Shown piece after piece: positions 20,421 to 21,368 of a stretch of 32,000 bases of DNA. Position 1 is the first letter of the stretch, and each line of letters begins with the position of its first letter. The notes beneath the pieces are model-generated. The model saw only the letters and a program-made list of their open reading frames with translations. It was not told where the DNA came from and did not search any database. A program made the position numbers and the translations under genes. This DNA comes from Candidatus Thorarchaeota archaeon. GTDB lineage: Archaea > Asgardarchaeota > Heimdallarchaeia > Hodarchaeales > Hodarchaeaceae. Location: the NCBI GenBank assembly GCA_048882505.1, contig JBHLRO010000003.1, positions 120,001-152,000 on the forward strand, read 5' to 3'.

Positions 20421-21368
20421 CTGGCAAGGCCAATTCGGATTTTACTATTTGGTTTAGAAAGGAGCGGTAAAACAACACTGGTCAATTCATTTCAGGCAGG
20501 TCAGTTCACGGAGGGAACACCGTTTACGGCTCAAAGCTTATCAGAACTCACTTACAATAATACGCATTTTAGTATCCTAGAGATCGGAGGAAGACGAGAA
20601 GTAAGAAATTTCGTCTCGGAGTTTGTCGGGTATGTGGACGCGATTATCTTCGTTATAGATGGAAGCGATGAACGAAAGTTTGATGAAGTGGCCTCGGAGT
20701 TCCAAAAAATACTTACTCATCCTCAATCAACAGGAAAACCAATAGCGGTTCTTTTTCACAAAAATGACATTGCACTCATCCATCCGTCCATCATCATTGA
20801 GCGGCTCGATCTGCTCGATAGGTACGATCGGCCCCATAGAGTGTTCTTGAGTACTGCACAAGAGCCTCGTGAGTTCGAACGAGTTCTTACTTGGATCCAA
20901 ACGCGTCTCAATGAAGACGAGACCCTAGTGGATGACCAAGAAGCCAGGCTGTTTAGAATTTATATTCTCGATATGTTGAATAACCAACAGGAGGGACTGG
21001 CGATTCTAGCTTTACTCGGTCAGCTCGAAATAATGGCTCGCACTGGACAGGTAAGCTATGATCGAGATAAAATCCTAACCATCCTACGTAAGTCCAGGGC
21101 GGCTGGGGAATTAGAATTTAACGAGCATTATAAAATTTGGAAAGTAACGGAAAAGGGGAAAGAAATACTAAATACGTCAGACTTGATAGAGAGCAGCAAA
21201 TATGAAAAGATCAAATCTCTGATTGACGAATCCAACATCGCTTCTGGTTCTTCTAAAGACAAAGAATCAATTGGATACAGAGAACAGAAAGAATTATTAG
21301 AGGAATTTGATCTAGAAGAGCTCGCAGAACTGTATAAGAAAAAATCTGATGAAAAACGTGGGTATTAG
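20421..21368 (+). CDS. Arf-family-like small GTPase (degenerate motifs) fused to a C-terminal winged-helix-like domain; start uncertain (CTG 20421, or ATG 20395 with a frameshift)
   Basis: Frame is open from 20382 and encodes RILLFGLERSGKTT (G1), LEIGG (G3), DAIIFVIDGSD, HKND (G4) and STAQ (G5). The ORF track starts at 20634 and misses G1-G3. Confidence 0.85.
   Translation: MARPIRILLFGLERSGKTTLVNSFQAGQFTEGTPFTAQSLSELTYNNTHFSILEIGGRREVRNFVSEFVGYVDAIIFVIDGSDERKFDEVASEFQKILTHPQSTGKPIAVLFHKNDIALIHPSIIIERLDLLDRYDRPHRVFLSTAQEPREFERVLTWIQTRLNEDETLVDDQEARLFRIYILDMLNNQQEGLAILALLGQLEIMARTGQVSYDRDKILTILRKSRAAGELEFNEHYKIWKVTEKGKEILNTSDLIESSKYEKIKSLIDESNIASGSSKDKESIGYREQKELLEEFDLEELAELYKKKSDEKRGY

What the first reader, a model, noticed from the sequence alone, without database searches (positions are those of the whole stretch)
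20421..21368. Arf-like GTPase with rewired catalytic motifs fused to a winged-helix-like domain
G1 to G3 aligns without gaps, by eye, to eukaryotic Arf1 as recalled. G1 GLERSGKTT is Arf-type. The switch-I Thr position is Phe (Thr shifted by one), DVGGQ becomes EIGGR (catalytic Gln to Arg), NKxD becomes HKND, and the Phe/Trp of the effector-binding triad are lost. There is no Gly2 for myristoylation. The C-terminal part (FRIYILDML...ELEFNEHYKIWKVTEKGKEIL) looks like a wHTH. This suggests a pseudo-GTPase or slow nucleotide sensor linked to DNA or protein binding (inference).
Basis: partly seen in the sequence, partly recalled or inferred. Interest (0 to 1): 0.7.

Follow-up and report, generated by a model that had tools for sequence, protein, structure and literature searches.

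The report
Arf-like GTPase fused to winged helix
A real, conserved gene of one group of Asgard archaea (Hodarchaeales) joins an Arf-type GTP switch, whose catalytic glutamine is replaced by arginine, to a winged-helix domain, a combination I did not find described and whose partner is unknown.

Summary
Bases 20421-21368 (+) encode a 315-residue protein.

- **G domain (residues 1-165):** it matches Pfam Arf at 89.8 bits.
- **C-terminal part (residues 170-252):** it folds as a winged helix. Cullin WHB and PadR regulators match it equally well.
- **Tail:** a conserved helix, a Ser-rich linker and a conserved acidic-then-basic tail follow.

The "rewired" motifs are family traits, not decay. Among 44 homologues, E-x-G-G-R replaces DxxGQ (Arg in 43 of 44), [H/N]KxD replaces NKxD, and the Thr one residue after the Arf switch-I Thr position is invariant. 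All nucleotide-binding motifs are intact, so a nucleotide-free pseudo-GTPase is unlikely.

The gene is single-copy in 19 of 21 further genomes of one GTDB genus and absent from 379 other genomes of the phylum. No protein outside the family carries this domain, apart from one weak match to a 1614-aa HTH_45 repeat protein.

The gene has no ATG, GTG or TTG before G1. It starts at CTG 20421, behind an SD-like GGGGA. That codon is CTG in 8 of 17 species, TTG in 7 and ATG in 2.

dN/dS against a 96.6%-identical relative is 0.11. Neighbours are not conserved.

Most likely this is a soluble, nucleotide-gated switch that uses the winged helix as its output. Whether it binds protein or DNA is open.

The scan noted this stretch before, only in this same genome.

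The parts
20409..20413 (+). Shine-Dalgarno-like GGGGA, 12 nt before the start codon
   Evidence: GGGGA or GAGGA lies 10-12 nt upstream of the homologous start codon in the CTG-start orthologues. The genome's 16S rRNA ends ...GGATCACCTCCT, and its genes show a G-rich peak at -14 to -8 with SD-like pentamers peaking at -11 to -14.
20421..20423 (+). CTG start codon (non-canonical)
   Evidence: No in-frame ATG, GTG or TTG lies before G1. The homologous codon is CTG in 8, TTG in 7 and ATG in 2 of 17 species genomes. Contigs from three studies show no indel here. NCBI calls the same CTG in the 96.6%-identical relative, whose protein P0062 begins MARPIRILL.
20421..21368 (+). Whole coding sequence, 315 codons plus TAG
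   Evidence: dN/dS is 0.11 against L006.
20421..20915 (+). Arf-type G domain (residues 1-165)
   Evidence: Pfam PF00025 at 89.8 bits. PDB profile hits are Arl3, Arl13B, Arf6, Arl1 and Arl8. Foldseek gives TM by target 0.86-0.91 to Arf-family and Asgard ArfR structures.
20451..20477 (+). G1 / P-loop GLERSGKTT (family: G-L-E-x-S-G-K-[ST]-T)
20520..20531 (+). Switch I P-F-T-A. Thr36 is invariant (44/44), one residue after the Arf1 Thr48 position, which here is Ser (22) or Phe (18)
20580..20594 (+). G3 E-I-G-G-R: Asp to Glu (44/44) and catalytic Gln to Arg (43/44)
20757..20768 (+). G4 H-K-N-D (family: His 30 / Asn 14, Lys 44/44, Asp 43/44)
20847..20858 (+). G5 L-S-T-A (family S-[TS]-T-A)
20928..21176 (+). 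Winged-helix domain (residues 170-252)
   Evidence: The AF2 domain model has pLDDT 86 with topology H-b-H-H-b-b-H. VIA gives Z 12.2 and rmsd 1.3 A over 77 residues to Cul1 WHB, and Z 12.1 to the PadR-like TA0346. Foldseek's best match is LmrR/PadR at E 3e-3. Pfam ANAPC2 scores 25.0 bits (cut-off 23) for one homologue.
21183..21230 (+). Conserved helix after the wing (family L-I-K-G-x-x-Y-E-K-L-R-A-x-L-D)
   Evidence: The full model has low pLDDT here.
21231..21296 (+). Variable Ser-rich linker
   Evidence: Its length and sequence vary across the family. pLDDT is below 50.
21297..21365 (+). Conserved C-terminal motif: an acidic amphipathic helix (E-E-F-D-L-[DE]-E-L-A-E-L-Y-K-K) followed by a basic tail
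   Evidence: It is conserved in nearly all 44 homologues. The motif is unique to this protein in the genome.

Best explanation
This is a lineage-specific, soluble molecular switch derived from an Arf-type GTPase.

**Shown**
- The G domain keeps every nucleotide-binding element: P-loop, an invariant switch-I Thr, G3 glycines, G4 Lys/Asp and G5.
- It has lost the Arf membrane device, the N-terminal amphipathic helix.
- It has lost the Arf effector aromatics.
- It has fixed Glu and Arg in place of the G3 Asp and the catalytic Gln.
- It is covalently joined to a winged helix of the cullin-WHB/PadR shape, then to a conserved helix and a conserved acidic/basic C-terminal peptide.

**Inferred**
- The protein binds GTP and GDP.
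- The nucleotide state, read through switch I/II and the interswitch, changes how the winged helix and the C-terminal peptide are presented.
- That module recruits a partner. I put a protein partner slightly ahead of DNA.
- Hydrolysis does not use the Arf/Ras Gln mechanism. It is either slow, or it uses Arg58 as a built-in finger, or it depends on a partner that supplies the catalytic residue.
- The weak start codons (CTG or TTG in 15 of 17 species) suggest a low-abundance regulatory protein.
For: - **Arf-type G domain.** Searches agree.
- **Binding motifs conserved.** Among 44 homologues: E13, S15, G16, K17 and T19 in all 42 rows that cover G1; T36 in 44/44; E54, G56 and G57 in 44/44; R58 in 43/44; K114 in 44/44; D116 in 43/44.
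- **Selection.** dN/dS is 0.11.
- **Distribution.** Single copy in 19 of 21 further genomes of one genus and 0 of 379 elsewhere in the phylum.
- **Winged helix.** The fold is confident. Its sequence profile finds only this family, plus one weak hit to a 1614-aa HTH_45 repeat protein, among 1.84 billion representatives. It is therefore a dedicated output domain, not a mobile module.
- **Rigid pairing.** The full-length model has pTM 0.72 with about 60 disordered residues, which suggests a fixed G-domain/winged-helix arrangement.
- **Leaning to a protein partner.**
  - The lowest rmsd is to cullin WHB, at 1.3-1.5 A over 77 residues.
  - One homologue passes the Pfam ANAPC2 cut-off and three more score below it.
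  - The winged helix is nearly neutral: median net charge +1, window -1. The whole protein has pI 5.25.
- **No N-terminal helix.** Only 4 residues precede beta-1.
Against: - No biochemical data exist.
- No partner gene is conserved next to it.
- PadR-type DNA-binding regulators match the winged helix as well as cullin WHB does (Z 12.1 against 12.2). Foldseek ranks PadR/LmrR first.
- H3 carries invariant Arg215, Lys217, Arg223 and Lys224, which would also suit DNA binding.
- Placement inside Arf/ArfR is not resolved.
Confidence: 0.4

Rival explanations
1. It is a GTP-gated DNA-binding regulator, a one-component transcription factor. The winged helix is a PadR-like wHTH, the helix after the wing dimerises it, and the G-domain nucleotide state switches DNA binding on or off. 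This would couple transcription to the GTP/GDP pool or to a GAP/GEF signal.
For: - PadR/LmrR/MarR regulators are the top Foldseek hits and tie for the top VIA score. ESM Atlas neighbours are archaeal PadR clusters.
- Arg and Lys are invariant on H3 and Lys on the wing.
- There is a basic C-terminal tail.
- The gene is a stand-alone unit with weak start codons, as is typical of low-copy regulators.
- The wH profile weakly matches an HTH_45 repeat protein.
Against: - The winged helix is not basic (median net +1, window -1) and the protein is acidic to neutral.
- Pfam PadR matches 1 of 26 members, at E 0.15 only.
- The only palindrome noticed upstream (20218-20230) is imperfect in the close relative.
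Confidence: 0.3
2. It is a hydrolysis-dead, permanently GTP-bound (or nucleotide-insensitive) scaffold. Like Arl13B, Rnd or RhoH, it binds GTP but does not cycle. The G domain would serve only as a structural platform for the winged helix and tail.
For: - The catalytic Gln is replaced in 44/44 homologues.
- The best structural match is Arl13B, an atypical Arf-family member that also carries a C-terminal extension.
- That Arl13B lacks the catalytic Gln is from my own knowledge of the family, not from a tool result.
Against: - Switch I Thr, switch II (G-G-R-K-E-V-R) and the interswitch are as strongly conserved as the binding motifs. This fits a working conformational switch.
- Arg at the Gln position is itself invariant rather than variable, which suggests a selected role.
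- Glu in G3 is compatible with hydrolysis in the G3E GTPases (established knowledge; Leipe et al. 2002).
Confidence: 0.2
3. It is a broken or decaying gene, or an assembly error. The missing canonical start and an off-frame ATG (20395) upstream of an A6 run would then indicate a frameshifted pseudogene.
For: - There is no in-frame ATG, GTG or TTG before G1.
- A conserved ATG at 20395 lies in the +1 frame. One extra A in the run at 20402-20407 would join it to the G-domain frame.
Against: - dN/dS is 0.11.
- CTG lies at the homologous position in 8 species, with an SD at the right spacing. ATG or TTG sits at the same position in the others.
- In L019 the equivalent upstream ATG is followed at once by a stop codon.
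- Contigs from three studies show no indel.
- The apparent N-terminal similarity of the 'repaired' frame is explained by the conserved SD-region nucleotides.
Confidence: 0.03

Closest known systems
Asgard ArfR / AArf GTPases (HodArfR1 PDB 8OUK, GerdArfR1 PDB 8OUM; bioRxiv 10.1101/2024.02.28.582541; PMC11914678)
   Same: Both have an Arf-type G domain with a GL[DE]xxGK[ST]T P-loop and come from the same archaeal lineage. Foldseek gives TM by target 0.86-0.88. The genome also holds canonical ArfRs, for example C18:385-903 with an N-terminal amphipathic helix and DIGGQ.
   Different: This protein has no N-terminal amphipathic helix. G3 is E-x-G-G-R rather than D-x-G-G-Q, and the F51/W66 aromatics are lost. 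It adds 150 residues (winged helix plus tail). It sits on a stem branch of 2.2 changes per site. The ArfR paper mentions ArfRs with extra domains only to exclude them. Neither paper uses the word 'winged'.
Eukaryotic atypical Arf-family members: Arl13B, Sar1, SR-beta
   Same: All are Arf-fold GTPases without the catalytic Gln. From established knowledge, Arl13B has Gly there and Sar1 and SR-beta have His. Arl13B also has a helical C-terminal extension, and it is the top structural hit with 176 aligned columns.
   Different: Arg at that position and Glu in G3 are not features of those proteins. None of them carries a winged helix. Arl13B is lipid-anchored and ciliary.
Cullin / APC2 WHB winged-helix domain (Pfam PF08672, PF10557)
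   Same: The shape matches, including the long first helix. VIA gives Z 12.2 and rmsd 1.3 A over 77 of 79 residues for Cul1, and Z 10.6 with 20% identity for APC2. PF08672 scores 25.0 bits (cut-off 23) for homologue P0025, and 14.5-18.6 bits for three others.
   Different: There are no cullin repeats and no conserved Lys at the neddylation position. The window's own domain gives no PF08672 hit. PadR folds score the same, so common descent is not shown.
PadR-family wHTH transcription regulators (for example LmrR, TA0346)
   Same: The winged-helix topology is the same, with a helix after the wing. VIA gives Z about 12, and Foldseek's best E is 3e-3.
   Different: There is no Pfam PadR match. The charge is near neutral. 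The domain is fused behind a GTPase rather than standing alone or preceding a ligand-binding domain.
P-loop NTPases with a built-in winged helix: ROCO (Roc-COR), STAND/AAA+ (NBD-WHD), SelB (functional analogues, from established knowledge)
   Same: The logic is the same: the nucleotide state of a P-loop domain is read out by, or acts through, an adjacent winged helix. In SelB the winged helices bind RNA.
   Different: No sequence relation was found. Those G/NTPase domains belong to other families, and their architectures are larger.

Membership tests
Arf family (Pfam PF00025; Arf/Arl/Sar/ArfR) | Match to the Arf HMM above the curated cut-off, and better than to other small-GTPase models | tested here: met
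   Arf scores 89.8 bits against a cut-off of 22.3. SRPRB scores 34.3, Roc 28.1 and Ras 24.3. All top PDB sequence and fold hits are Arf family.
Arf family | Arf-type P-loop G-L-[DE]-x-x-G-K-T/S-T | tested here: met
   The window has GLERSGKTT. The family pattern G-L-E-x-S-G-K-[ST]-T holds in all 42 rows that cover G1.
Arf family | G3 W-D-x-G-G-Q with catalytic Gln | tested here: not met
   The motif is [LI]-E-[VI]-G-G-R. Glu is present in 44/44 and Arg in 43/44. Trp is replaced by Leu or Ile.
Arf family | G4 N-K-x-D | tested here: inconclusive
   H-K-x-D occurs in 30 homologues and N-K-x-D in 14. Lys and Asp are kept.
Arf family | N-terminal amphipathic helix (with or without Gly2 myristoylation) that binds membrane in the GTP state | tested here: not met
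   Only 3-5 residues precede beta-1 across the family, and the start codon is mapped.
Arf family | Interswitch toggle (two-residue register shift) | not testable with these tools
   This needs GDP- and GTP-state structures. The interswitch length equals that of Arf1 in a gapless alignment.
Arf family | Phylogenetic nesting within Arf/ArfR | tested here: inconclusive
   The family falls on the Arf side of a split with SH-aLRT 85, but on a stem of 2.21. A tree that keeps the other Arf rows together without it is not rejected (p-AU 0.63).
Winged-helix fold | H1-b1-H2-H3-b2-b3 topology with structural matches at high Z | tested here: met
   Searches give the topology. One search finds 161 chains with Z of 8 or more, the best at 12.2.
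PadR family (PF03551) | Match to the PadR HMM | tested here: not met
   One of 26 members matches, at E 0.15. The resemblance is in fold only.
Cullin/APC2 WHB (PF08672) | Match to the HMM above the cut-off, plus cullin context | tested here: inconclusive
   One homologue scores 25.0 bits against a cut-off of 23, three score below it, and the window's own domain gives none. There are no cullin repeats.
Pseudo-GTPase (nucleotide-free class) | Degenerate G1/G4/G5 motifs | tested here: not met
   G1, G2, G4 (Lys, Asp) and G5 are conserved across 44 homologues.

The most novel reading that the evidence does not exclude
A Ras-superfamily GTPase directly gates a DNA-binding winged helix. This would be the first small-GTPase-type one-component transcription factor, found in the archaeal lineage closest to eukaryotes. 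A variant reading is that the winged helix is a true relative of the cullin/APC2 WHB domain, so that an Arf-derived switch was wired to a ubiquitin-like pathway before eukaryotes arose.
Probability: 0.25. Interest if true: 0.75.

Novelty: new variant of a known kind. Interest (0 to 1): 0.55.

Why it matters
Hodarchaeales are regarded as the closest archaeal relatives of eukaryotes, and their Arf-related GTPases are currently studied as forerunners of membrane trafficking.

This family shows that the same lineage also turned an Arf-type switch to another use. The membrane helix is gone. The hydrolysis chemistry is changed: Asp became Glu and Gln became Arg, and both substitutions are fixed. A winged helix has been added as output.

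It offers a small, tractable protein for three questions:
- How can an Arf fold work without its Gln?
- What can an Arf interswitch control other than an N-terminal helix?
- Did cullin-type WHB domains have archaeal relatives?

It also documents a conserved CTG initiation codon in an Asgard archaeon. Standard gene callers miss it: one database entry for this gene starts at GTG 20634 and lacks G1-G3, and another starts at ATT 20433.

Tried and rejected
- **Frameshift or homopolymer error at the A6 run (20402-20407).** I considered this because joining ATG 20395 to the G frame gives an N-terminus that looks like P0002's. I rejected it for four reasons. The resemblance comes from the conserved SD nucleotides. 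The equivalent ATG is followed by a stop in L019. CTG, TTG or ATG occupy one homologous position with an SD 10-12 nt upstream. Contigs from three studies carry no indel.
- **Homodimer prediction (complex prediction, two copies, alignment A2).** No verdict; the score was 0.00.
- **RNA evidence.** No RNA holder was listed among public runs.
- **Conserved neighbours.**
  - BLAST clustering of ORFs around 12 loci found no neighbour shared by all.
  - A TIGR04076-like 104-139-aa protein and a glyoxalase-like 156-164-aa protein recur in subsets only. They lie elsewhere in this genome or are absent from it.
- **Other Arf-like paralogues with long C-terminal extensions in this genome.** hhalign of the wH profile against four of them found no relation (probability below 1%).
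- **C-terminal motif elsewhere in the genome.** None was found.
- **PADLOC defence models.** No hit for the protein or its three neighbours.
- **Prior classification in the ArfR paper.** I looked for the B3_Heim homologue (PWI47075) in the supplements. The held file is cut and the accession was not found. The Nat Commun paper has no held supplements.
- **Recent transfer of the gene.** I first read the gene as unusually conserved between two species (96.6% against 76% for the flank). A check on housekeeping genes 3-7 kb downstream showed 96% there too. The divergent piece is therefore the 1.7-kb block after the gene, not the gene itself.

Full report
**1. What is in the sequence**

The frame that carries the finding is open from the stop at 20379-20381 to TAG at 21366-21368. 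The ORF lister starts it only at GTG 20634, after G3, because no ATG, GTG or TTG lies in frame upstream.

All quoted motifs are present:
- G1 GLERSGKTT at 20451-20477.
- Switch I P-F-T-A at 20520-20531.
- G3 EIGGR at 20580-20594.
- G4 HKND at 20757-20768.

Pfam gives Arf (PF00025) at E 1.9e-25 and 89.8 bits over residues 3-161. This is far above SRPRB (34), Roc (28) and Ras (24).

**2. The start codon**

Three database versions of this protein exist: 311 aa from ATT 20433, 244 aa from GTG 20634, and 315 aa from the CTG in a close relative.

I first suspected a frameshift. ATG 20395 lies in the +1 frame, followed by an A6 run, and one extra A would join the frames. Comparison of 17 species genomes and 4 further loci (three metagenome contigs and one NCBI assembly) settled the matter:
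- At one homologous position, 10-11 codons before the G1 glycine, the codon is CTG in 8 species genomes, TTG in 7 and ATG in 2.
- In the CTG group it is preceded at 10-12 nt by GGGGA or GAGGA.
- The genome's 16S rRNA ends in GGATCACCTCCT. Its genes show G-enrichment at -14 to -8, with SD-like pentamers peaking at -11 to -14.
- In L019 the upstream ATG is followed directly by a stop.
- Contigs from three studies cover the site without indels.
- dN/dS against the 96.6%-identical relative is 0.11, from 15 synonymous and 6 non-synonymous changes.

The gene is intact and starts at CTG 20421.

**3. A family, not a strain oddity**

A word-indexed search found about 50 homologues of 283-369 residues at 48-70% identity. 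All are from Asgard MAGs, variously labelled Hodarchaeota, Heimdallarchaeota B3_Heim, Promethearchaeota, Thor- or Hermodarchaeota.

A six-frame search of 400 genomes of the phylum with the C-terminal-domain profile found the gene once each in 19 of 21 further genomes of the window's GTDB genus. It found none in 379 other genomes, including 2 of the same order and the rest of the class.

Motif counts over 44 homologues:

| Element | Pattern and counts |
|---|---|
| G1 | G-L-E-x-S-G-K-[ST]-T |
| Switch I | Pro34 42/44; position 35 (the Arf Thr48 position) Ser 22, Phe 18; Thr36 44/44 |
| G3 | Glu54 44/44; Gly56 and Gly57 44/44; Arg58 43/44 |
| G4 | His 30 / Asn 14; Lys 44/44; Asp 43/44 |
| G5 | S-[TS]-T-A |

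The changes are therefore fixed features under selection. The nucleotide-contacting residues are all kept, which argues against a nucleotide-free pseudo-GTPase.

Glu in G3 is known from the G3E GTPases, so it does not preclude Mg/GTP chemistry (established knowledge).

**4. Relation to Arf**

A gapless alignment with eukaryotic Arf1 and Asgard ArfR sequences fetched here confirms four points:
- The one-residue Thr shift.
- Loss of the Arf1 F51 and W66 positions, while Y81 becomes Phe/Tyr/Leu.
- D to E and Q to R in G3.
- An N-terminus too short for an amphipathic helix.

Profile search of PDB sequences returns Arl3, Arl13B, Arf6, Arl1 and Arl8 over residues 3-168 only. Foldseek with the full AF2 model (pLDDT 79.5, pTM 0.72) returns only Arf-family chains among the top 50. 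These include GerdArfR1 (8OUM) and HodArfR1 (8OUK), at TM by target 0.86-0.91.

I built an ML tree with 44 of this genome's small GTPases, 13 family members, 8 eukaryotic Arfs and 6 Asgard ArfRs. The family is monophyletic (SH-aLRT 99). It sits on the Arf side of the main split (SH-aLRT 85), but on a stem of 2.21 changes per site.

An AU test does not reject a tree that keeps the other Arf rows together without it (p 0.63). So Arf affinity is clear from HMMs and fold, while nesting within ArfR is unresolved.

**5. The C-terminal half**

In the full model, residues 173-251 form H-b-H-H-b-b-H. The domain folded alone, from an alignment of 26 sequences, has pLDDT 86.

| Search | Result |
|---|---|
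| VIA-align, 48,161 chains | Cul1 WHB: Z 12.2, rmsd 1.3 A, 77 of 79 residues |
| VIA-align | PadR-like TA0346: Z 12.1 |
| VIA-align | Rv3488 PadR: Z 12.0 |
| VIA-align | Cul5: Z 11.6 and 11.4; CRL7 chain: Z 11.4 |
| VIA-align | APC2 WHB: Z 10.6, 20% identity |
| Foldseek, PDB | Best match LmrR/PadR, E 3e-3 |
| ESM Atlas, by shape | Nearest clusters are archaeal PadR |

By sequence, the window's domain has no significant Pfam match. Across 26 members the best hit is PF08672 (APC2 WHB). It scores 25.0 bits against a cut-off of 23 in P0025, and 14.5-18.6 bits in three others. Only trace hits appear to HTH_45, Mrr_N and PadR.

An exhaustive HMM search of 1.84 billion representatives with the domain profile found only the family itself, plus one weak hit to a 1614-aa HTH_45 repeat protein. 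The fold is therefore a winged helix. Its specific kinship, cullin-WHB-like or PadR-like, is open. It occurs only behind this GTPase.

After the wing come three elements:
- A conserved helix (L-I-K-G-x-x-Y-E-K-L-R-A-x-L-D).
- A variable Ser-rich linker.
- A conserved acidic amphipathic helix with a basic tail.

That last motif is unique in the genome. Charges are modest: the winged helix has median net +1 (window -1), and the whole protein has pI 5.25 (median 6.9).

**6. Context**

Neighbours differ between species, and no PADLOC model matches. The gene is a stand-alone transcription unit. It has a TATA-like TTATAA at 20348-20353 and a T-rich tract after the stop. I read both directly from the sequence and did not test them.

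**7. How it probably works**

Three things are shown: the architecture, the conservation and the selection. The rest is inferred.

The protein is most likely a GTP/GDP-binding switch that is not membrane-anchored. Its nucleotide state controls presentation of the winged helix and the C-terminal peptide to a partner.

I place a protein partner (0.4) slightly ahead of DNA (0.3). The reasons are the near-neutral charge, the tighter fit to cullin WHB and the ANAPC2 hits. PadR-type regulators fit equally by Z, and H3 carries invariant Arg and Lys.

A non-cycling scaffold is a third option (0.2). Weak start codons in 15 of 17 species fit a low-copy regulator under any of these readings.

**8. Novelty**

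NCBI already names these proteins 'ADP-ribosylation factor-like'. The two Asgard Arf papers do not mention a winged helix. The ArfR paper set aside ArfRs with extra domains.

I found no description of this fusion or of the E-x-G-G-R motif. It is a new variant of a known kind.

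Noticed in passing
window 22189-22683 (+): A 164-aa protein with no Pfam hit. Its ESM Atlas model matches the longin domains of NPRL2/NPRL3 (GATOR1), uDENN and SMCR8 at TM 0.63-0.75 by query. This is the fold of GAP/GEF subunits for small GTPases. It lies 820 bp downstream of the Arf-wH gene, beyond an opposite-strand 110-aa membrane-like ORF (21669-22001). The linkage is seen only in this species and its close relative, so a functional tie is unproven.
   Followed up: partly
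window about 21456-21579 (+), and L006 5690-5808: A vestigial second copy of the gene's last 35 or so codons (…SIGYREQKDLLDEFDIEE…KRCY, then a stop) lies in the intergenic DNA just after the gene. The same remnant is present in the relative. It marks an old duplication or recombination at the 3' end.
   Followed up: partly
window 21414-23112 compared with G070 (L006/L034): Two genomes that are about 96% identical over the Arf-wH unit (20058-21413) and over 24073-28392 are only 76% identical across the 1.7 kb in between. The relative also has a 4.3-kb insertion exactly at 21413/21414, carrying a TPR paralogue, two 177-aa ORFs and a ParA-like gene. This is a recombination hot spot right behind the gene's terminator.
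   Followed up: partly
G000 contigs C2:287194-287718, C4:210882-211388, C23:25490-25987, C13:92280-92801 (loci L022-L025): Four further Arf-like paralogues (Pfam Arf 105-122 bits) carry 135-158-residue C-terminal extensions. These have no Pfam match and no detectable relation to the winged helix described here. One of them (C13) has DLGGH, the Sar1-like His.
   Followed up: partly
G000 C6:49560-50039 (295-aa frame): An Arf-like G domain preceded by an N-terminal domain of about 130 residues of unknown family. An ESM Atlas row also shows longin-like folds fused to archaeal GTPases (row 5).
   Followed up: no
whole genome G000: There are 63 matches to small-GTPase models in a 4.3-Mb genome. These include Rag-like proteins (DCGGQ with extensions of about 150 aa) and many Ras/Rab-like proteins.
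   Followed up: no
window 18501-20054 (-): A 517-aa TPR protein is transcribed divergently from the Arf-wH gene. A 47%-identical paralogue lies directly downstream of the Arf-wH gene in the close relative. At least a dozen weaker paralogous matches (20-30% identity) lie elsewhere in the genome.
   Followed up: partly
window 20218-20230: A perfect palindrome, CACATTAAATGTG, lies in the shared promoter region between the TPR gene and the Arf-wH gene. It carries one mismatch in the 96.6%-identical relative. It may be chance in AT-rich DNA.
   Followed up: no
window 27079-28392 (-): A RuBisCO large-subunit homologue (Pfam E 1e-78) next to an M17 aminopeptidase. This is ordinary for these archaea.
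   Followed up: no
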